Counted from the stretch's first letter, positions 4,691 through 19,783 are shown. The stretch: 20,000 nucleotides of DNA from an uncultured virus (IMG/VR IMGVR_UViG_3300030330_005363) (IMGVR_UViG_3300030330_005363:46954-66953); one strand, 5' to 3'. Notes: generated by a model from the letters alone, not told the origin. Numbers and translations: made by a program.

Positions 4691-5363
4691 AATAATCTGC
4701 CTTTCTTTGTATTAAGTTGTTCTTATCAAAATCTCTCTCATACAAATGTAAATTGTGTGCAAAATGGAAATACGAACCGAGCTCATATCCTGTCCTCTTA
4801 GACACAGCTTTCATCAGTTCTGAAAAACAATACTGATCGTTACAGAAACCGAACCAGAGATCATTAGATCGCATCGTCACGCACATATTCAGTTTATTAT
4901 TTACAATTGTAAATTGAACTGCGTATGTACATGGAGTATCATATCTATATTTGTTTATCTCTTTGCCATCGTAAATTGATATTGCAGCTTTTCTAGTGTT
5001 AGGGTTGTCTTTGAGTTGTTGTACAACTTTGTCTAGTTGATAACCTCTTTCCCATTGATAACCGTAATTAGAATGCACATTGTTATCTCCGTCTGCCATA
5101 CGTTTCCATATAGCAGGTATCTTACCATATAATATGCCTAATGTTTCTATGTTTCTATCACCTGTCATATACCATTCCCATTCAGCTTCCGCATAATCTA
5201 AATTCCAATTTCTATATGAAGTATGAATATGATTATCAGCTGGATCATTAATATAAAATCCTATATTAAATAAAGCTTTAGTTCCATCAAAATCAACACC
5301 ATTGTTTTCAATAGCATTGTAATAAAACTCAAAAGCTTTTTGTGCGTTTTTAAAGTCTATCAT
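4683..5363 (-). CDS. Thymidylate-synthase-fold enzyme, dCMP hydroxymethylase/methylase-like
   Basis: SNYG, TRKA, catalytic PC, MRSNDLWFGFCND and HNLHLYE motifs; Asp in place of the ThyA specificity Asn. Confidence 0.75.
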   Translation of the reverse strand: MIDFKNAQKAFEFYYNAIENNGVDFDGTKALFNIGFYINDPADNHIHTSYRNWNLDYAEAEWEWYMTGDRNIETLGILYGKIPAIWKRMADGDNNVHSNYGYQWERGYQLDKVVQQLKDNPNTRKAAISIYDGKEINKYRYDTPCTYAVQFTIVNNKLNMCVTMRSNDLWFGFCNDQYCFSELMKAVSKRTGYELGSYFHFAHNLHLYERDFDKNNLIQRKADYYA

Positions 5364-8923: not shown

Positions 8924-8966
8924 ATCTATATAATTACATATTTAATTTAACATTTACAATTCTAAC

Positions 8967-10402: not shown

Positions 10403-10521
10403 AGTCTTTCGTAAATCATTTCTTCTTCTTGTTCCTCTAGATTTAAGTTATATTTATATATAACTTCTTCTAAGGTTGCATATGAATAATAATCCATATA
10501 ATCTCTTTTTGTTGCTCCCAT
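10375..10521 (-). CDS. Hypothetical protein (48 aa, MGATKRDYMDYY...)
   Basis: Manual translation; stop overlaps the ATG of the HTH gene. Confidence 0.6.
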   Translation of the reverse strand: MGATKRDYMDYYSYATLEEVIYKYNLNLEEQEEEMIYERLCDTRPKDK

Positions 10522-10523
10522 AA

Positions 10524-10748
10524 TTATAGGTTTAATAGGTTTAGTCGTCTACGGTATTTCTTTTGTAGCTTCAATTTGGTTTGTATTCTTGATCTTCTTT
10601 CTTTTATATTCTCTTCCCAACCGTCTTTTAATGGTCTTGTAGCTATAAATAAAGATTCGTCAAATATTTCGTGATGTAATTCTACAATTCTTTTTTCAAG
10701 ATATGCTATATGTCTTGATTTTCTTGGGTTAAATTCTATCTTATTCAT
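10524..10748 (-). CDS. Hypothetical basic protein (MNKIEFNPRKSRH...)
   Basis: ORF-track 10524..10772; ATG at 10748 preferred because the extension lies in the structured element. Confidence 0.65.
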   Translation of the reverse strand: MNKIEFNPRKSRHIAYLEKRIVELHHEIFDESLFIATRPLKDGWEENIKERRSRIQTKLKLQKKYRRRLNLLNL

Positions 10749-10750
10749 AC

Positions 10751-10874
10751 CTACGAAAGCCCGCACCGTCACCTATGGGAAACGCCTCTTTCCACATCTT
10801 CATGTGGCATGGGTCGGTCCGAAGGGAAAGTACGAGCTACTCAAAGGATGCCTGGTCGCCTTATTTATTCGTAG
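10751..10874 (-). ncRNA. Putative structured cis-regulatory RNA, copy A
   Basis: GC-rich island with stems CUACGAA/UUCGUAG, AGCUCGUAC/GUGCGGGCU, ACCCAUG/CAUAGGU and CCACAU/AUGUGG; ends 2 nt before ATG. Confidence 0.6.
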
Positions 10875-10951
10875 TATTTATCTAAAAGTTTATTAGCAAC
10901 TTCCATGCTAATCTCGTTATTTAGATATAATTCAAATATCAATTTTCTCAT
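10865..10951 (-). CDS. Small hypothetical protein (28 aa, MRKLIFELYLNNEISMEVANKLLDKYYE)
   Basis: Manual translation; overlaps the end of the DenV-like gene. Confidence 0.5.
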   Translation of the reverse strand: MRKLIFELYLNNEISMEVANKLLDKYYE

Positions 10952-11405
10952 ATATTTTTTCGTTTTTACCTGCTACAATATGCTTTTCGCCTATATAGTA
11001 ATTCCAATAAGCTTTGATACTGCATGGATCTTTATATTCATCAGGCATAGCCTGAGGTGGTTGTGTAAACCCTGTATATGGTAAACCGCCTGGTAAATAT
11101 CTTAAATAAGGATCACACTTTGTATATGACAAATGTACTTTACCGTAACGTTTAGTATATTCGGCAGATAAAGCACAGAAATGATCATATAACCAAGTGT
11201 AATTTTCAGCTGAACTTCTACACCATATAGTTGATGGGTGGTTTACATGTGCACGTTTGTATGGTACATTTGCATCTTCTCCCATTATTTCATGATGTGC
11301 TGTACACAGCATTTGAGCTGATTCTAAGATCATCTTAACAACATGTTTGTTATATTGGTATTGCGCGGCTTTTACTGGGTCTCTATGTAAATAAAATATA
11401 TTCAT
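10932..11405 (-). CDS. denV: Pyrimidine dimer DNA glycosylase-like protein (DenV family)
   Basis: MNIFYL...KHVVKMILESAQML...YK..H.NHP...W...Y..RYGK.H...QAMP pattern. Confidence 0.75.
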   Translation of the reverse strand: MNIFYLHRDPVKAAQYQYNKHVVKMILESAQMLCTAHHEIMGEDANVPYKRAHVNHPSTIWCRSSAENYTWLYDHFCALSAEYTKRYGKVHLSYTKCDPYLRYLPGGLPYTGFTQPPQAMPDEYKDPCSIKAYWNYYIGEKHIVAGKNEKIYEKIDI

Positions 11406-11527
11406 TCGTAGTCTGATATTATATTTCTTAGTTTAATTATAAACTCATATTGAGATATATTAGCTTGTTCCCACTCCCATATAAGATCTTCTATATCGGA
11501 GGATAATAAGTATTCTTTACTATTCAT
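11402..11527 (-). CDS. Small hypothetical protein (41 aa, MNSKEYLLSSDIEDLIWEWE...)
   Basis: Manual translation; ATGA-coupled to the denV-like gene. Confidence 0.55.
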   Translation of the reverse strand: MNSKEYLLSSDIEDLIWEWEQANISQYEFIIKLRNIISDYE

Positions 11528-12389
11528 AATTTCTTATACATTTATACAATGGATGTCTGTAAGAACCTGCTTTAGTTCGTTGAAAATAAGTAAAGGTAGC
11601 ACGCTCACCTATATAGTGACTAATGTTATCGATCATAGCGGCTAGATCCTTGTAGGTGTAACCTTTGCCCGGTGGGCAGCCGAACTGTACACCCGCGTCA
11701 TCTTGCATGATGAACTTCCCAAGCGTGCCTTGCCTCTTACCTTTACCTAATTCATAACCAATAATTGTTGCCTCTGCATCATCAAAATCTTTGAACTTCA
11801 TTAAATCCCATGACCTAGTTCTTTTATATAATCCATCAGGATTTCTATAAATAGATCCTTCATAGCCTTCGTTTAAGAAATTTTTATGCCATTCTTTAGC
11901 TTCATCGATATTTTCTATATAAACCGTTTTAGTTAATCTTACATGATCGTTGTCTATAAAATGACCATCATAAGTTTTCTCTGCAATTACATCAATTAAA
12001 CGGTCTAATCTTTCTTCATATGTAGCACCCAATACAACATGCTTTAACGGTATTATATCGTATATATGATATTGTACTAATTTTTCAGCTTCTTTTCTGT
12101 GCTCAAATGTAGGTTTAGTTTTCCTAACTAATGAAATAATCTTTTCAAAATCATCTTTTAATTTATGGTTGTATAATTCACCATCTAATTTTAGATAAGG
12201 ATATTGTTTGAACAGTGGTTCTAAGGTTTCTACAATGTGATCTACATTTTTAAATTCTTTCCCTGTTCTAGAAAAAGCACCATCTTTTGTAAATACACAT
12301 CTAACTCCATCAAGTTTAGGTTGTAGTAAAGCAGGAAATACTGCTTTATCAGGGTCAAACTTATGGGCTAACATTGGTTTTATTGTCAT
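11520..12389 (-). CDS. ATP-dependent DNA ligase
   Basis: KPMLA, motif I PKLDGVR, LDGELY, EGYEG, K.K.F.D.E, C-terminal OB fold with RHP...R. Confidence 0.92.
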   Translation of the reverse strand: MTIKPMLAHKFDPDKAVFPALLQPKLDGVRCVFTKDGAFSRTGKEFKNVDHIVETLEPLFKQYPYLKLDGELYNHKLKDDFEKIISLVRKTKPTFEHRKEAEKLVQYHIYDIIPLKHVVLGATYEERLDRLIDVIAEKTYDGHFIDNDHVRLTKTVYIENIDEAKEWHKNFLNEGYEGSIYRNPDGLYKRTRSWDLMKFKDFDDAEATIIGYELGKGKRQGTLGKFIMQDDAGVQFGCPPGKGYTYKDLAAMIDNISHYIGERATFTYFQRTKAGSYRHPLYKCIRNYE

Positions 12390-12694
12390 AATTTTCCTAA
12401 TTTTTTCTGTATTTGTCTTAATTTTTTTAATACTCTAGCAGCTTTTTCATAACCTGCGGTGGTATCTTGACTTTCATATATCATTAATATAGTTTGAAGT
12501 CTAGCTAATTCACCAATTAACATTTCTTCATCAGTCATATCTGCAAATATACCAGCTAAATGATCATTTGGAGTAAAATCTCTTTCAAATTGAGCTTGAG
12601 CTTGAGCTCTTGCTTCTTCATCTCCAAATAATTCTAAAACTATTTTAGAAGCTACTAGATCTGCTAATTCATTCATTTGTTTTTTTGTCATCAT
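12386..12694 (-). CDS. Hypothetical protein
   Basis: 102 aa ORF; ATG 5 nt after the repeated motif. Confidence 0.7.
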   Translation of the reverse strand: MMTKKQMNELADLVASKIVLELFGDEEARAQAQAQFERDFTPNDHLAGIFADMTDEEMLIGELARLQTILMIYESQDTTAGYEKAARVLKKLRQIQKKLGKL

Positions 12695-12699
12695 ATTGA

Positions 12700-12731
12700 T
12701 ATTATCCGTTAGTATTCGTATTTAGTTTGTA
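12700..12731 (-). promoter_or_regulatory. Repeated promoter-like motif, copy 1
   Basis: TACAAACTAAATACGA-N8-GGATAATA-N5-ATG(12694). Confidence 0.75.
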
Positions 12732-12736
12732 AATTG

Positions 12737-12925
12737 TTATTTTTTGTATTCATTAAAATCAATTAAGAACCCTATAAATACAATTATATTGAGTCCTAAG
12801 GACGTAGCGATCTCAATTAGATCGTGATATACATTTAATGATAAATGAATGTGTCCTACAACCCAGAACGGAGTTGCTAAATTTTCACTTATCCATATTA
12901 ATGTAAATTTAATTAACTTTTTCAT
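12737..12925 (-). CDS. Small membrane protein
   Basis: 62 aa with hydrophobic segments. Confidence 0.65.
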   Translation of the reverse strand: MKKLIKFTLIWISENLATPFWVVGHIHLSLNVYHDLIEIATSLGLNIIVFIGFLIDFNEYKK

Positions 12926-13019
12926 AAGAATATTGTGGACACTGTCTGCAAGGAGCTGTACGTTTTGTAGTGCTACAACTTACGCATAATGCTATTACTA
13001 TTATTACTATTATTCTCAT
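12909..13019 (-). CDS. Small putative lipoprotein (36 aa, MRIIVIIVIALCVSCSTTKRTAPCRQCPQYSYEKVN)
   Basis: Manual translation; basic N-terminus, hydrophobic core, VSC lipobox-like site. Confidence 0.55.
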   Translation of the reverse strand: MRIIVIIVIALCVSCSTTKRTAPCRQCPQYSYEKVN

Positions 13020-13022
13020 TTT

Positions 13023-13238
13023 TTATAGTTCTTTTAACTTATCAAGTCTATTTAATTTTTGCTTGTTAGTTAAACTGTTCCAGTCACTTGGTGGTTGCCA
13101 ATCTGGTATACTAGCTCTCATTGTGGCAAAAGCTATTTTTTCTTTATACTTAACTGTTTCGTCAGCTAGTTCATCACCTTGTTTAGTCGCTAGATCCCCT
13201 AACAACATAAACGCTTTCATCATATTTATATTATCCAT
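13023..13238 (-). CDS. Hypothetical protein (start 13238 or 13223)
   Basis: 71 aa ORF on the operon strand. Confidence 0.65.
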   Translation of the reverse strand: MDNINMMKAFMLLGDLATKQGDELADETVKYKEKIAFATMRASIPDWQPPSDWNSLTNKQKLNRLDKLKEL

Positions 13239-13239
13239 A

Positions 13240-13332
13240 CCACGAAAAGCCCGTACCTTTTGAGTACGAGCTTGTAAACGTTGTTTTCCGACAGCTTCTG
13301 ACTGTATCCTGTTATCAGTGTTTACTTCGTGG
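13240..13332 (-). ncRNA. Putative structured cis-regulatory RNA, copy B
   Basis: Three-way junction CCACGAA/UUCGUGG, GUAAAC/GUUUAC, AAGCUCGUAC/GUACGGGCUU; ends 1 nt before ATG. Confidence 0.62.
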
Positions 13333-13346
13333 AAACTAAACTACTA

Positions 13347-13625
13347 CTAATCTAACAACACGTAGTATGCTTCTGGGTTATTCACCCTAAACCAAGTTAA
13401 TGCTTTTTGAAACTCATTAATTCGTTTAGTTGTCATTGTATTAGGCACAGTGTCAAATACCATTTGACAACCTATTATAAAATCATATAATGATAATTCT
13501 ACACCTGTTAATTCATATGATTCACCTGAAAATGGATTAGTTACAGTTTCACCTTCAGTGTAAATCATACCTTTAAACCATTTAGGTAGTTTTTGTTCAG
13601 TCTTCAACTTCTTCTGTGATGCCAT
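13347..13625 (-). CDS. Hypothetical phage protein
   Basis: 92 aa, NPFSGE...NPEAYYVLLD. Confidence 0.7.
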   Translation of the reverse strand: MASQKKLKTEQKLPKWFKGMIYTEGETVTNPFSGESYELTGVELSLYDFIIGCQMVFDTVPNTMTTKRINEFQKALTWFRVNNPEAYYVLLD

Positions 13626-14581: not shown

Positions 14582-14800
14582 TTATCTAAGCATTGTGCCG
14601 TAACCTTTACGACGAGTTAGTTTAGCGATGCGCTTTGCATCAGCTCTCGATAATATTTGTATACTATTACCGGTTTTGTGGTTTATAATTGGTGCACAAC
14701 CGTAACGTTCTACAGTTGAGCATGCTACACAATTGTTGTAGCCATATTTAATTCTTACTGGGTGGATCTCATTGCCACATTTACATATTTTATCATTCAT
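14582..14800 (-). CDS. Small zinc-finger protein (C.CG..I...R...GY..CV.CS)
   Basis: ORF-track 14582..14821; ATG 14800 preferred (5 nt after motif). Four Cys in a pattern reminiscent of DksA/TraR C4 fingers. Confidence 0.6.
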   Translation of the reverse strand: MNDKICKCGNEIHPVRIKYGYNNCVACSTVERYGCAPIINHKTGNSIQILSRADAKRIAKLTRRKGYGTMLR

Positions 14801-14805
14801 ATATA

Positions 14806-14837
14806 TATTATCCTGCTTCAATCGTATTTAGTTTGTA
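14806..14837 (-). promoter_or_regulatory. Repeated promoter-like motif, copy 2
   Basis: TACAAACTAAATACGA-N8-GGATAATA-N5-ATG(14800). Confidence 0.75.
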
Positions 14838-14838
14838 A

Positions 14839-15237
14839 TTATTTTAATTTCTTTAATACTAATTGATATATTTCATAATGAATTCCTTGTTTGTGGTCCA
14901 TACATGCATCAAGTAACTCTATTGGCGCGTCATCTTGTACAAAATTACTCCAATTTAACTCATCGTAGTAATCCATTATTTCAAAAATTTCATTAAAAAG
15001 TACGTCATGTACTCTATCTTTTACTCTTTCTGCAATATCTTCTATTTGCTGTTTAAGATTAATTTCTTTTATTTCTTCAGGTATCTTGTGAGCTTCTTCT
15101 AACTTTTTAAGTTTTTCAGAATCTTCAAGATCGTCAAATACTACTTTTTTAAACCCACCACCGTACTTATTTGTATCCCATGGTGTACCTTGATACTCTT
15201 TAGTTTGCCTGTATTCATTCAAAGTTCTTTTTTTCAT
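14839..15237 (-). CDS. Hypothetical protein
   Basis: 132 aa ORF. Confidence 0.7.
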   Translation of the reverse strand: MKKRTLNEYRQTKEYQGTPWDTNKYGGGFKKVVFDDLEDSEKLKKLEEAHKIPEEIKEINLKQQIEDIAERVKDRVHDVLFNEIFEIMDYYDELNWSNFVQDDAPIELLDACMDHKQGIHYEIYQLVLKKLK

Positions 15238-16883: not shown

Positions 16884-17047
16884 GAGATTACAAATGTTAG
16901 ACCTTTATAGTTAAACCAGTGGTTGTACTCGTCAGGTATATTATTAATTGTTACTCCTTTATAAGTTCTTTTTTCTACTTGACCGTTAATGGTTTTAGTT
17001 ATTGTTACTTTTTTACGATCTGCGGTATGTGTTTTTATTTTATTCAT
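16880..17047 (-). CDS. Hypothetical protein (MNKIKTHTADR...)
   Basis: ORF-track 16880..17065; ATG 17047 is 5 nt after the motif (ATG 17062 is an alternative). Confidence 0.62.
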   Translation of the reverse strand: MNKIKTHTADRKKVTITKTINGQVEKRTYKGVTINNIPDEYNHWFNYKGLTFVIS

Positions 17048-17052
17048 ATTAT

Positions 17053-17084
17053 TATTATCCATCACTTTTCGTATTTAGTCTGTA
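17053..17084 (-). promoter_or_regulatory. Repeated promoter-like motif, copy 3
   Basis: TACAGACTAAATACGA-N8-GGATAATA-N5-ATG(17047). Confidence 0.75.
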
Positions 17085-17211
17085 ATTTGTTAAACTCTCT
17101 TTTATAAGCTTCTTGTAAGTAACCAGGTAAATTCTTGTACCAGTTGTAAAACTCTCCACCTTTTACTTTCATCATTTCTTTTTTTATGTAAGCGTCATTA
17201 CTTTTACTCAT
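17062..17211 (-). CDS. Hypothetical protein (49 aa, MSKSNDAYIKKEMM...)
   Basis: Manual translation. Confidence 0.55.
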   Translation of the reverse strand: MSKSNDAYIKKEMMKVKGGEFYNWYKNLPGYLQEAYKREFNKLQTKYEK

Positions 17212-17873: not shown

Positions 17874-18126
17874 AGTATTTATTTACTTTAGTTATTAACT
17901 CTTTAATTTCTTCGTCAGGAAAGACAGAATATACATGATCTACTACTGATTTTACATAGTCGAAGTTGAATTCTTCAATATCTATTCCATAAGGTGTATA
18001 CATTAGCTCACGTTTAGTCCAACCATATGGTGACTTTTTCTTGTTAAATACTGCTATTTTAATGTAATCATCACCTATCATAGCATCTAAACTATCTGTA
18101 GTTATATATTTAATTTTGTCTTTCAT
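17854..18126 (-). CDS. Hypothetical protein
   Basis: 90 aa ORF; ATG 5 nt after the motif. Confidence 0.7.
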   Translation of the reverse strand: MKDKIKYITTDSLDAMIGDDYIKIAVFNKKKSPYGWTKRELMYTPYGIDIEEFNFDYVKSVVDHVYSVFPDEEIKELITKVNKYYEKNSK

Positions 18127-18131
18127 ATTAT

Positions 18132-18163
18132 TATTATCCTACTCGGATCGTATTTAGTTTGTA
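18132..18163 (-). promoter_or_regulatory. Repeated promoter-like motif, copy 4
   Basis: TACAAACTAAATACGA-N8-GGATAATA-N5-ATG(18126). Confidence 0.75.
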
Positions 18164-18304
18164 TTTTAATGATTCAAAAGCTTTATATTTACTTTCTAAG
18201 TCAAAGATTTCACTCATAGGTTCTAAACTTAAATCGTCTAAATATTCTTGCATGTGATCTAGTGCTACCATTAGCACGTTTAACTCTTCTTTAGTTAATT
18301 TCAT
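18134..18304 (-). CDS. Hypothetical protein (56 aa, MKLTKEELNVLMVALDHMQE...)
   Basis: Manual translation; ATGA-coupled; stop lies inside the GGATAA box. Confidence 0.6.
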   Translation of the reverse strand: MKLTKEELNVLMVALDHMQEYLDDLSLEPMSEIFDLESKYKAFESLKYKLNTIRVG

Positions 18305-18498: not shown

Positions 18499-18533
18499 TT
18501 TATTTAATTTTTAAGTGTTAATATTTAGTTTAG

Positions 18534-18605
18534 TATTCCGTGAGAGAATCGAACTCTCATTTCTAGGATGAAAACCTAGTGTCCTAACCGTTAGACGAAC
18601 GGAAC
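18534..18605 (-). tRNA. trnE: tRNA-Glu (UUC)
   Basis: Acceptor GUUCCGU/ACGGAAU, D-arm, anticodon stem CUAGG/CCUAG with loop UU-UUC-AU, T-arm GAGAG-UUCGAUU-CUCUC; followed by CUA rather than CCA. Confidence 0.92.
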
Positions 18606-19119: not shown

Positions 19120-19157
19120 AGTTTATATTTTATTTTATTATTAATTAGTTACGTTTA

Positions 19158-19189
19158 TATTATCCTCACTTTGTCGTATTTACATTGTA
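19158..19189 (-). promoter_or_regulatory. Repeated promoter-like motif, copy 5
   Basis: TACAATGTAAATACGA-N8-GGATAATA; no ATG after N5, next ATG at 19119; lies upstream of the RNA cluster. Confidence 0.68.
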
Positions 19190-19405
19190 AAAATCGATTA
19201 GTAGATCTTCAGTTTCGTTTAGCCACTCGATATAAGTTTCACCATATTTCTCGTCAATTATACCACAGTGAATATCTTCTTTCATCCATTCTTTCATATC
19301 TTGAACGTTATTTATCGCTTCTGAAAGTTGATAAGTATGTAGTATTTGATTTGTAGTGAACGACATTACACCGAGTGCACCTACTGCAATTAGTATTTTT
19401 TTCAT
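19166..19405 (-). CDS. Hypothetical protein with signal-peptide-like N-terminus
   Basis: MKKILIAVGALGVMSFTT...; 79 aa. Confidence 0.65.
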   Translation of the reverse strand: MKKILIAVGALGVMSFTTNQILHTYQLSEAINNVQDMKEWMKEDIHCGIIDEKYGETYIEWLNETEDLLIDFYNVNTTK

Positions 19406-19614: not shown

Positions 19615-19641
19615 AGTTAATTATTTATTAGTTGTTTATTA

Positions 19642-19673
19642 TATTATCCATACTAGTTTGTATTTAGTTTGCG
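19642..19673 (-). promoter_or_regulatory. Repeated promoter-like motif, copy 6
   Basis: CGCAAACTAAATACAA-N8-GGATAATA; next ATG at 19614. Confidence 0.68.
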
Positions 19674-19783
19674 AAACAATTTATGTAGTCGAGTACTATA
19701 ATTGTACATAGTAAAAATGCTACAATTCCATAAATAGTTAATTCTTGTTGAGGTGTTAATTCAGTGTAATTATTTTGTTTCAT
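19664..19783 (-). CDS. Small membrane protein (39 aa, MKQNNYTELTPQQELTIYGIVAFLL...)
   Basis: Manual translation. Confidence 0.5.
   Translation of the reverse strand: MKQNNYTELTPQQELTIYGIVAFLLCTIIVLDYINCFAN

What the first reader, a model, noticed from the sequence alone, without database searches (positions are those of the whole stretch)
10751..13332. Twice-occurring structured RNA with a compensatory base change, closing right at the start codon
Seen (minus strand): copy A (10874-10751) CUACGAA...AGCUCGUAC...GGUGCGGGCU-UUCGUAG-GU-AUG; copy B (13332-13240) CCACGAA...AGCUCGUAC-UCAAAA-GGUACGGGCU-UUUCGUGG-U-AUG. The outer stem swaps U-A for C-G, the inner stem keeps pairing (U-A versus U-G) while its loop varies from 7 nt to ~63 nt of further hairpins. 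Both are GC-rich islands in AT-rich DNA. Inference: a phage cis-regulatory RNA family (translational switch, attenuator, processing site or protein-binding element) that I do not recognise. In copy A the 5' strand is the last codons of a 28-aa upstream ORF, allowing ribosome-coupled unfolding; caveat: YE-stop codons also give CTACGAA at 11405, so that strand could match by chance.
Basis: partly seen in the sequence, partly recalled or inferred. Interest (0 to 1): 0.75.

Follow-up and report, generated by a model that had tools for sequence, protein, structure and literature searches.

The report
Modular RNA cassette at phage gene starts
Two copies of a conserved folded RNA sit between early genes of an uncultured ocean phage and end one or two bases before the next gene's start codon; the same element recurs in many related phages, matches no catalogued RNA family, and probably marks and controls the boundary between neighbouring genes on one message.

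Summary
Both copies (10746-10874 and 13236-13346, minus strand) fold into the same frame. An outer stem P1 and an inner stem P3 share one continuous 3' strand, and a start codon follows 1-2 nt later.

The element is a real family. I collected 137 non-redundant copies from related marine phage contigs and metagenomes, all on the gene-sense strand.
- P3 is well supported: 98% of cells paired, GC<->AU and UA<->CG swaps, and 149 G.U against 1 A.C.
- P1 is only moderately supported.
- Structured inserts at three sites are swapped between copies.
- 120 of 137 copies have an ATG 1-3 nt after P1, opening at least 10 unrelated small genes.
- Rfam 15 has no match.

In more distant relatives, real tRNA genes occupy the orthologous intergenic slots.

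Best reading: a portable intercistronic cassette that closes one cistron and gates the next start codon. It is probably recognised by host RNA-processing nucleases (inferred, not shown). It also acts as a recombination module like the PeSL cassettes of T4-like phages.

The probable hosts are Flavobacteriia, which lack Shine-Dalgarno sequences. This scan reached the same reading earlier on another genome (e1-5947416). The function remains untested.

The parts
10746..10874 (-). Copy A, whole element (subtype A, P1 3' strand ends GUAG), through the AUG of the downstream gene
   Evidence: Sequence. The minimum-energy fold gives P1 plus P3. Model R2 scores 35.4 bits, E = 3.6e-5.
10868..10874 (-). 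Copy A, P1 5' strand CUACGAA. These are the last codons (Y-E) of the 28-codon ORF, and its stop UAA follows at 10867-10865
   Evidence: The same arrangement occurs in relatives.
10839..10867 (-). Copy A, junction insert of 29 nt (module AAGGCGACCAGGCAUCCUUUGAG)
   Evidence: The same module sits at the junction of subtype-B copies in L241 and L274 and of the subtype-A copy in L238.
10830..10838 (-). Copy A, P3 5' strand AGCUCGUAC
10767..10829 (-). Copy A, P3 apical insert of 63 nt. It is framed by UUUCCCUUCGG ... CCCAUAGGUGACG and holds an inner hairpin
   Evidence: The frame recurs in L241, L249, L252, L253, L260 and L328. The inner hairpin recurs in a subtype-B copy of L238.
10758..10766 (-). 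Copy A, P3 3' strand GUGCGGGCU
10751..10757 (-). Copy A, P1 3' strand UUCGUAG, followed by GU and the AUG at 10748-10746
10865..10951 (-). Conserved 28-codon ORF (MRKLIFELYLNNEISMEVANKLLDKYYE) that runs into copy A
   Evidence: Translated. Homologous peptides lie upstream of subtype-A copies in L238, L240, L244, L246 and L274 and in many metagenome contigs. No Pfam match.
10524..10748 (-). Gene of 74 codons that starts at the AUG after copy A. It heads the cluster 48 aa, 210-aa HTH protein, 260-aa sigma-factor-like protein
   Evidence: An orthologue starts at the element's AUG in L238.
13333..13346 (-). Copy B, conserved 5' flank UAGUAGUUUAGUUU (extra stop codons). It follows the stop of the 92-codon gene at 13349-13347
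   Evidence: The same flank lies behind two different upstream genes in relatives.
13326..13332 (-). Copy B, P1 5' strand CCACGAA
13273..13325 (-). Copy B, junction insert of 53 nt: a stem GUAAAC/GUUUAC enclosing two small hairpins. Other modules replace it in relatives
13248..13272 (-). Copy B, P3 hairpin AGCUCGUAC-UCAAAAG-GUACGGGCU
   Evidence: 64.2 bits.
13240..13246 (-). Copy B, P1 3' strand UUCGUGG, followed by U and the AUG at 13238-13236
13023..13238 (-). Gene of 71 codons (MDNINMMKAF...) that starts at the AUG after copy B
   Evidence: Orthologues start at the element's AUG in 14 loci.
13347..13625 (-). Gene of 92 codons upstream of copy B. In distant relatives its orthologue is followed by a tRNA gene instead of the element

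Best explanation
The two copies belong to a new family of modular intercistronic RNA cassettes. The family is found in a clade of uncultured marine phages whose hosts are probably Flavobacteriia, which do not use Shine-Dalgarno sequences.

Shown:
- On the sense transcript, a conserved 3' strand (GGURYGGGCU-UUYGURG-GUA) pairs back to form an inner helix P3 and an outer helix P1.
- Variable structured modules are plugged in at the P1/P3 junction, at the P3 apex and upstream.
- The element fills the whole gap between one gene's stop codon and the next gene's AUG, which lies 1-3 nt after P1.

Inferred: the folded element separates the two cistrons and gates the downstream start. A stable G+C-rich helix inside the -20 to -1 region, with no upstream adenines, should block ordinary initiation in this kind of host. 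The downstream gene would then be expressed only after one of two events.
- The RNA is cut at the helix base by a host structure-specific nuclease, either RNase III as at the T7 intercistronic sites or the tRNA-processing enzymes. The cut would leave a hairpin-protected upstream message and a downstream message with almost no leader.
- In subtype A, ribosomes finishing the small upstream ORF unwind P1.

Because the frame is nearly identical between copies, it also serves as a crossover point that shuffles the small genes behind it.
For: Family and strand:
- About 45 true copies lie in loci around the ligase gene of related phages, 1-3 per locus.
- All 43 covariance-model hits are on the gene strand.
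- The exact 19-mer occurs in 46 stretches of viral contigs.
- The pooled set holds 137 non-redundant copies.

P3:
- 98% of cells are paired.
- One pair is GC 25 / AU 15 and another is UA 37 / CG 4.
- A conserved U.G occurs in 40 of 41 distinct rows. 0 of 500 shuffles reach the covariation score.
- Pooled pairs are 1048 Watson-Crick, 149 G.U, 1 A.C and 35 other. This fits RNA of the sense strand, not DNA or antisense RNA.

P1:
- Every variant 3' strand comes with a fitting 5' strand: UUCGUGG with CCACGAA; UUCGUAG with CUACGAA, CUACGAG or UUAUGAA; UUUGUAG with UUACAAA or UUAUGAG; UUCGUGU with ACACGAA.
- CCACG lies upstream of 24 of 51 subtype-B copies and 0 of 83 subtype-A copies.
- Minimal copies fold as one hairpin with an internal loop, z = -5.25 and -5.44.

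Start-codon link:
- An ATG lies 1-3 nt after P1 in 120 of 137 copies. The search patterns did not include the ATG.
- 43 complete ORFs from such ATGs have a median of 71 codons and fall into at least 10 unrelated families.

Host context:
- No Shine-Dalgarno motifs lie upstream of the window's genes.
- The nearest cultured relatives of the primase infect Cellulophaga, Tenacibaculum and Flavobacterium.
- In Flavobacterium johnsoniae, initiation favours upstream adenines and low structure from -20 to +20 (PMC6847099, passages read).

Equivalence to tRNA genes:
- 0 of 22 element-bearing loci hold a tRNA gene, against 13 of 38 element-less loci.
- tRNA-Gln or tRNA-Met lies 5-49 nt after the orthologue of the window's 92-codon gene in 5 loci. 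Orthology is 56% and 52% identity.
- In three loci a tRNA-Met is followed by an ATG 2 nt after its called end.

Shuffling: behind the same frame and the same two upstream genes lie at least 5 different downstream partners.
Against: - No cleavage has been seen. The only RNA-library evidence is assembled contigs. One contig runs unbroken across copy A (10442-10891). That is what an uncut RNA, or contaminating DNA, would give.
- P1 plus P3 is 15-18 bp, short for RNase III.
- P3 is twice as long as a tRNA T arm, and neither ARAGORN nor the Rfam tRNA model sees a tRNA here.
- P1 support is modest. A 7-mer partner with G.U allowed appears by chance with P of about 0.3. 8 copies have a G.G mismatch. 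In the GUGCGGGCA subtype (32 or more copies) the partner lies 61 nt away in coding sequence and may be fortuitous.
- Because the 3' strand is rich in G and U, any transition in the 5' strand keeps pairing, so much of the apparent compensation is cheap.
- Most copies come from one clade, so the counts are not independent events.
- Four to five copies are followed by a promoter-like motif and not by a start codon, and some stand in tandem with no ORF between them. The start codon is therefore not obligatory.
Confidence: 0.5

Rival explanations
1. It is a translational operator or coupling device that works without any cleavage. The helix hides the start region. The gene is translated only when upstream ribosomes unwind P1 (subtype A) or reinitiate across the helix base, or when a phage or host protein binds the conserved helices.
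For: - The AUG lies 1-3 nt after P1 in 120 of 137 copies.
- In subtype A the stop codon of the conserved small ORF directly follows the P1 5' strand.
- An upstream stop always lies within about 20 nt of P1.
- Conservation sits in the helices and not in the loops, as expected for a protein-recognised RNA.
Against: - In subtype B the stop lies 14 nt or more before P1, too far for a terminating ribosome to open it.
- Copies followed by promoter-like motifs, and tandem units, have no gene to regulate.
- No RNA-binding protein was recognised among 28 window proteins scanned.
Confidence: 0.2
2. It is mainly a transcription terminator or attenuator hairpin (P3 followed by UUU(U)). Recombination keeps it uniform, so it is a terminator-type regulatory cassette like PeSL, and the adjoining start codon only reflects tight packing of genes.
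For: - P3 is a strong G+C-rich hairpin followed by 3-4 U.
- Four to five copies stand directly upstream of the phage's promoter-like motif ACAAACUAAAUACGA, the order seen in PeSLs (PMC4122927, passages read).
- Other hairpins precede the same motif in distant relatives.
- Gene content differs behind the element.
Against: - The terminator scan does not call either copy, because it requires at least 5 T in 8.
- The genome's evident terminators have long U runs: 610-596 in the window, and a hairpin with UUUU near genome base 22650.
- A terminator explains neither P1, nor the invariant CGUGGUA tail, nor the fixed 1-3 nt distance to the AUG.
- A contig from an RNA library reads through copy A (weak).
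Confidence: 0.15
3. It is a selfish, MITE-like or recombination-spread structured repeat with no function for the phage.
For: - Tandem arrays: three units in L356 and two in L328.
- Modules are swapped between copies.
- The frame is nearly identical between phages whose ligases are only about 60% identical.
Against: - Its orientation is always the sense strand.
- Its position is always intergenic and in register with a start codon.
- Pairing is kept through compensatory changes.
- No transposase or target duplication was seen.
- It is absent from cellular genomes. Of 105 pattern hits, 102 look like chance and the other 3 are contigs of 627-2018 bp in MAGs.
Confidence: 0.07
4. After excision it is a stable trans-acting small RNA, for example a decoy for a host nuclease or defence system, and not a cis element.
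For: - It occupies the same slots as tRNA genes in relatives.
- It has a compact, stable fold.
- Highly abundant non-coding intergenic RNAs of unknown function were reported for Cellulophaga phage phi14:2 (bioRxiv 10.1101/2020.03.07.982082, passages read).
Against: - There is no conserved single-stranded seed or loop. The loops and junctions are the most variable parts.
- The fixed link to start codons argues for action in cis.
Confidence: 0.08

Closest known systems
PeSL (promoter-early stem-loop) cassettes of T4-like phages (PMC2839356, search listing only; PMC4122927, passages read)
   Same: - Both are repeated, well-conserved intergenic cassettes among small early genes.
- Both contain a stem-loop and end at the start codon of the downstream gene.
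- Both lie next to gene replacements, insertions and deletions between close relatives, so both are likely crossover points.
   Different: - A PeSL carries a sigma-70-like -35/-10 promoter and a Shine-Dalgarno sequence between the stem-loop and the ATG. Here only 1-3 nt separate the helix from the ATG, and neither is present.
- Here a second, outer helix encloses swappable structured modules.
- The hosts are probably Flavobacteriia.
RNase III processing sites between early genes of phage T7 (from my own knowledge; no paper read here)
   Same: - Both are intercistronic, just after a stop codon and just before the next gene's initiation region.
- Both have two stacked stems separated by an internal loop, as in the minimal copies.
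- In both, the sequence is conserved among the copies within one genome.
   Different: - Cleavage is not shown here.
- The helices total only 15-18 bp.
- The internal loop can hold inserts of up to about 110 nt.
- No sequence similarity was tested, because no T7 sequence was obtained.
tRNA genes embedded in polycistronic transcripts (tRNA punctuation; tRNA-like processing signals)
   Same: - Real tRNA genes fill the orthologous slots in related phages, and in three loci they abut the next start codon.
- The topology is loosely alike: a 7-bp outer stem, a variable middle, and a 3' hairpin whose 3' strand runs straight into the outer stem.
   Different: - There is no cloverleaf, and ARAGORN and the Rfam tRNA model are negative.
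- P3 has 9-11 bp where a T stem has 5.
- There is no conserved T-loop sequence and no CCA.
Repetitive extragenic palindromes and Correia-type elements of bacteria (from my own knowledge)
   Same: Both are short structured intergenic repeats that are co-transcribed with genes, sometimes stand in tandem, and can affect mRNA stability or be cut by RNase III.
   Different: - Those elements occur in both orientations and at varied distances from genes.
- This element has a single orientation, is in register with start codons, and is confined to phages.

Membership tests
Any Rfam 15 family | Match to a curated covariance model | tested here: not met
   - The only gathering-threshold hit in the window is tRNA-Glu at 18534-18605.
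- In E-value mode over 10650-13450, 5 weak hits (E = 1.8-9.2) fall elsewhere or well below their cut-offs. The one that overlaps copy B (cow-rumen-3) scores 13.3 bits against a gathering score of 86.7.
- 8 related loci with tandem copies and extra modules give 0 hits at E <= 1.
tRNA / tRNA-like | Cloverleaf recognised by ARAGORN or Rfam RF00005 | tested here: not met
   ARAGORN finds only tRNA-Glu in the window. No tRNA hit at E <= 10 over either copy.
tRNA / tRNA-like | Processing by RNase P or RNase Z | not testable with these tools
   Only assembled contigs of RNA libraries were available.
PeSL cassette | Repeated conserved intergenic cassette among early genes that contains a stem-loop and ends at the downstream start codon | tested here: met
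   The definition is from PMC4122927.
PeSL cassette | Sigma-70-like early promoter (-35, N17, -10) between the stem-loop and the gene | tested here: not met
   Only 1-3 nt lie between P1 and the ATG. No promoter-like site is called at either copy on the minus strand.
PeSL cassette | Shine-Dalgarno sequence before the start codon | tested here: not met
   The sequence before the AUG is the P1 3' strand. The window's genes in general lack such motifs.
PeSL cassette | Lies next to gene-content differences between close relatives | tested here: met
   Behind the same frame lie the 71-codon MNNIN gene, the MRKFN/MRTFE gene, the MKRFIKF gene, the MEDKKYNGW gene, or a promoter-like motif.
RNase III processing site (T7 type) | Two coaxial stems separated by an internal loop, in an intercistronic position | tested here: met
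   The minimal copies fold as 5 bp, a UU/UUU loop, 10 bp and a 5-nt loop.
RNase III processing site (T7 type) | Cleavage by RNase III | not testable with these tools
   No raw RNA reads and no biochemistry.
Intrinsic terminator | G+C-rich hairpin directly followed by a U-rich tract (at least 5 of 8) | tested here: not met
   Neither copy is among the 14 terminator-like sites called in the window. Only 3-4 U follow P3.
Riboswitch | Conserved unpaired nucleotides that form a ligand pocket at junctions or loops | tested here: not met
   The junction and apex are the most variable parts and are replaced wholesale. The conserved nucleotides lie in the helices.

The most novel reading that the evidence does not exclude
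The element is a tRNA-independent punctuation signal. Host tRNA-processing or double-strand-specific nucleases would cut at the base of P1, one or two bases before the AUG, and release downstream messages with almost no leader. Phages of Shine-Dalgarno-less Bacteroidota would then start translation of many small early genes on processed, essentially leaderless mRNAs. Real tRNA genes would do the same job at the same slots in sister phages.
Probability: 0.2. Interest if true: 0.85.

Novelty: new variant of a known kind. Interest (0 to 1): 0.62.

Why it matters
Little is known about how phages of Bacteroidota organise expression of polycistronic early messages in hosts that lack Shine-Dalgarno-guided initiation.

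This family is abundant in ocean metagenomes. It is sharply defined and sits in register with the start codons of at least ten unrelated small genes. It is interchangeable with tRNA genes at orthologous slots. That makes a concrete question testable: does RNA processing at a structured boundary create the translatable form of these messages?

It also adds a well-supported motif with covariation, plus several companion modules, to the catalogue of phage RNAs. Finally, it is a second example, outside the T4-like phages, of conserved intergenic cassettes that appear to drive shuffling of small accessory genes.

Tried and rejected
- **First broad viral scans.** Only 1 of 235 scored matches (L033) was a true relative.
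- **Cellular genomes.** Of 105 hits to a 17-mer, about the number I estimate from database size, only 3 carried the upstream strand. All 3 are contigs of 627-2018 bp binned into MAGs. The element is therefore not a host sequence at this stringency.
- **Metatranscriptomes.** Four RNA-library runs were laid on the window. Only assembled contigs were available. No joints and no pile-ups of ends were reported, and one contig spans copy A. Nothing can be said about processing. Parts without cover mean nothing.
- **Covariance models.** R1 and R2 cannot bridge the junction inserts. They align whatever lies next to P3 as the P1 5' strand, so P1 could not be tested with the count of structure pairs. 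The hand parse of P1 showed that a 7-mer partner with G.U allowed is common by chance.
- **Distant relatives.** No copy was found in 45 more distant ligase loci.
- **Mimic of 16S rRNA helix 45.** In three Bacteroidota genomes that hairpin (AGCCGUACC-GGAA-GGUGUGGCU) loosely resembles P3. The wobble position, stem length and loop differ, and a match of this size somewhere in 1.5 kb is expected by chance. Rejected.
- **Promoter inside the element.** No host-like or sigma-70-like boxes were found. Rejected as the main function.
- **Ribozyme or riboswitch.** No Rfam hit and no conserved unpaired core.
- **Giant ORF.** The 3197-codon ORF outside the window has no PHROG match and no DFDxD motif, so there is no evidence for a virion RNA polymerase.
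- **Literature.** Searches found no description of this motif. That covers only the held library and these terms.


Full report
**Setting**

The window is the last 20 kb of a 66,953-bp IMG/VR virus record rated complete. It has about 33% G+C. All credible genes in the window lie on the minus strand. Many small ORFs come first, followed by replication and nucleotide-metabolism genes: ATP-dependent DNA ligase, primase/helicase, Erf, exonuclease, thymidylate synthase, MazG, ribonucleotide reductase and a sigma-factor-like protein.

The primase/helicase is closest to those of Cellulophaga, Tenacibaculum and Flavobacterium phages, at 32-42% identity. No Shine-Dalgarno-like motif precedes the start codons. 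The host is therefore probably a member of the Flavobacteriia. This is inferred.

**The observation**

Cut to their own limits, each folds at minimum free energy into the same frame:
- an outer stem P1 (CUACGAA/UUCGUAG in copy A, CCACGAA/UUCGUGG in copy B);
- an inner stem P3 (AGCUCGUAC with GUGCGGGCU or GUACGGGCU), whose 3' strand runs with 0-1 nt into the 3' strand of P1;
- an AUG 2 nt (A) or 1 nt (B) further on.

Copy B has z = -4.87 and copy A has z = -2.10.

The short shared words are not by themselves beyond chance. A covariance model built only from relatives does find the two copies, at 64.2 and 35.4 bits. It finds nothing else credible in bases 1-45453 plus the window. Rfam 15 has no match at gathering threshold or up to E = 10.

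**A large family**

Seventy-one loci of related 40-70-kb phage contigs were fetched through the DNA ligase.
- A fuzzy scan and a hand parse found about 45 true copies, 1-3 per locus.
- Model R1 found 43, all on the gene strand.
- The exact 19-mer of the 3' strand occurs in 46 stretches of viral contigs. These include arrays of three (L356) and two (L328) units.
- After removing duplicates I have 137 copies: 83 with a GUAG-type 3' strand (subtype A), 51 with GUGG (subtype B) and 3 doubtful.

Cellular genomes do not carry the element. Of 105 hits to a 17-mer, 102 lack the upstream strand, and the other 3 are contigs of 627-2018 bp in MAGs. Forty-five more distant ligase loci have no copy.

**Is it RNA structure?**

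P3 is strongly supported.
- In the alignment of 43 hits (41 distinct rows), 98% of cells pair.
- One pair is GC in 25 rows and AU in 15. Another is UA in 37 and CG in 4.
- A U.G wobble is kept in 40 of 41 rows.
- 0 of 500 shuffles reach the covariation score, and sliding the partner by 1-3 columns drops pairing to 37-47%.
- Over all 137 copies, the nine core pairs give 1048 Watson-Crick, 149 G.U, 1 A.C and 35 other. That asymmetry fits an RNA of the sense strand. It does not fit a DNA hairpin or an antisense transcript.

P1 is less secure.
- For: each variant of the 3' strand is matched by its 5' partner. CCACGAA goes with UUCGUGG. CUACGAA, CUACGAG and UUAUGAA go with UUCGUAG. UUACAAA and UUAUGAG go with UUUGUAG. 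ACACGAA goes with UUCGUGU.
- For: CCACG occurs upstream of 24 of 51 subtype-B copies and of 0 of 83 subtype-A copies.
- For: minimal copies in which the partner directly abuts P3 fold as a single hairpin with an internal loop, z about -5.3.
- Against: with G.U allowed, a 7-nt partner is found by chance in 130 nt with P of about 0.3.
- Against: eight copies carry a G.G mismatch.
- Against: in the GUGCGGGCA subtype the partner lies 61 nt upstream in coding sequence.
- Against: the G/U-rich 3' strand tolerates any transition opposite it, and most copies belong to one clade.

The models could not bridge the inserts, so P1 was not tested formally.

**Modularity**

Three sites accept structured inserts.
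- The P1/P3 junction holds 0 to about 110 nt.
- The P3 apex holds 5-8 nt in 124 of 137 copies and 30-63 nt in 13.
- The third site is the stretch 5' of P1.

The same modules recur in different copies and in both subtypes.
- The junction module of copy A is also in subtype-B copies of L241 and L274.
- The inner hairpin of copy A's apex is also in a subtype-B copy of L238.
- A hairpin GCCUUACAAUUUAAAAUAAGG sits at the junction of at least ten copies.

The junction of copy B is replaced by an unrelated hairpin in its closest orthologue, L033/L257. The conserved nucleotides therefore lie in the helices and in the tail CGURG-GUA. They do not lie in loops or junctions. This argues against a riboswitch or ribozyme and for recognition of the helical frame.

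**Link to gene starts**

- An ATG lies 1-3 nt after P1 in 120 of 137 copies. The search patterns stopped short of it.
- In the first set of 50 such ATGs, 43 ORFs were complete. They have a median of 71 codons (range 18-161) and belong to at least ten unrelated families.
- Four copies are instead followed directly by the promoter-like motif (see the notes in passing). One more has the motif about 20 nt on.
- The other 12 of the 13 'other' copies are tandem units, have the ATG 17-40 nt away, or are doubtful.
- The upstream stop codon always lies within about 20 nt of P1. In subtype A it directly follows the P1 5' strand, which is the end of a conserved 28-codon ORF.
- Subtype B carries the extra conserved flank UAGUAGUUUAGUUU behind two different upstream genes.

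**Equivalence with tRNA genes**

ARAGORN on 60 of the 71 ligase loci found 14 tRNA genes in 13 loci. None of these loci has the element: 0 of 22 element-bearing loci against 13 of 38 element-less loci.
- In five loci a tRNA-Gln or tRNA-Met lies 5-49 nt after the orthologue of the window's 92-codon gene (56% and 52% identity). That is the slot of copy B.
- A tRNA-Arg follows the gene ending ...RRKGYGTCLR in L291. That slot holds the element in L254, L295, L314, L324, L336 and L351, and holds nothing in the window.
- In L263, L270 and L293 the next ATG starts 2 nt after the called end of a tRNA-Met.

The clades differ, so this is a correlation and not a proof of equal function.

**How it most likely works**

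What is shown is a conserved sense-strand RNA fold that fills the gap between cistrons and ends at the next start codon.

What follows is inferred. In Flavobacterium johnsoniae, initiation is favoured by adenines at -3, -6, -12 and -13 and by low structure from -20 to +20 (PMC6847099, passages read). The element offers the opposite, so the downstream start should be closed while the fold stands. I think the most likely opening is endonucleolytic processing at the helix base. Three things point that way:
- the minimal copies have the two-stem, internal-loop layout I know from the T7 RNase III sites;
- tRNA genes, which are necessarily excised, fill the same slots;
- start codons abut both kinds of structure.

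Processing would leave the upstream message ending in a hairpin and the downstream message with almost no leader. For subtype A, unwinding by ribosomes that finish the small ORF is an obvious alternative or addition.

Nothing here shows cleavage. One contig from an RNA library runs through copy A.

The near-identical frame also offers 40-50 nt of homology for crossovers. Five or more different genes sit behind the same frame and the same upstream genes. This is the role proposed for PeSL cassettes (PMC4122927).

**Comparison and novelty**

- **PeSL.** The element shares position, repetition and the shuffling role with PeSLs, but lacks their defining promoter and Shine-Dalgarno parts.
- **T7 RNase III sites.** It resembles them in layout and position, but cleavage is untested.
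- **tRNA.** It is not a tRNA.
- **Terminator.** It is not a canonical terminator.
- **Rfam.** It is in no Rfam family.

I file it as a new variant of a known kind, the structured intercistronic regulatory cassettes of phages.

The same scan reported the family earlier from another genome with the same reading (e1-5947416). I saw that note after reaching my reading. Its remark about tRNA-like elements led me to the ARAGORN test.

Noticed in passing
window 12683-12739, 14786-14845, 17033-17092, 18112-18171, 19141-19192, 19639-19676 (minus strand): A repeated promoter-like motif, TTACAAACTAAATACGA-N8-GGATAATAT, lies upstream of early genes. Eight or more copies fall between genome bases 59.6 and 66.6 kb. 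It is conserved across the wider phage group and directly follows the RNA element in some relatives.
   Followed up: partly
window 4883-4912 and 8936-8965 (minus strand): A second repeated motif, TT(A/G)NAATTGTAAAT...AAATATGT, lies upstream of the Erf gene and inside or near the thymidylate synthase region. It may be a host-type promoter.
   Followed up: no
window 11600-11750: A G+C-rich patch (0.52-0.53 against about 0.30) lies inside the DNA ligase coding sequence. It could be a mosaic segment or an embedded structure.
   Followed up: no
L244:1940-2000, L251:770-830, L254:745-800, L260:1125-1185, L306:2125-2185, L277:1345-1400, L314, L328, L356: A separate module of about 50 nt (consensus near CGGGCAUGAGUGUGAUGCUGUAACUCGACCCAAAAACAUACGAGCG) lies upstream of or between elements. 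It shows compensatory changes in three stems and a possible GGG/CCC pseudoknot. Rfam has no match for L314, L328 and L356. It is absent from the window.
   Followed up: partly
window 18533-18605 (minus strand): tRNA-Glu (UUC) lies among the early genes. It is followed by a weaker copy of the promoter-like motif.
   Followed up: no
G000:C1:35860-45453 (outside the window): A giant 3197-codon ORF in the structural module has no PHROG match and no DFDxD motif.
   Followed up: partly
G000:C1:5398-6960 (outside the window): The phage encodes a GroEL-like chaperonin (phrog_5725, E = 6e-134).
   Followed up: no
L263:700-725 and L268:1257-1485: tRNA-like 3' ends (GGTTCGA(A/T)TCCTGCCACGTCCACT) sit in long G+C-rich intergenic stretches. 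ARAGORN did not call them as tRNAs. They may be degenerate or unusual tRNA-like RNAs.
   Followed up: no
L534 (metagenome contig), just upstream of its element: By eye, a subtype-A element directly follows what looks like the T arm and acceptor 3' strand of a tRNA. This was not checked with ARAGORN.
   Followed up: no
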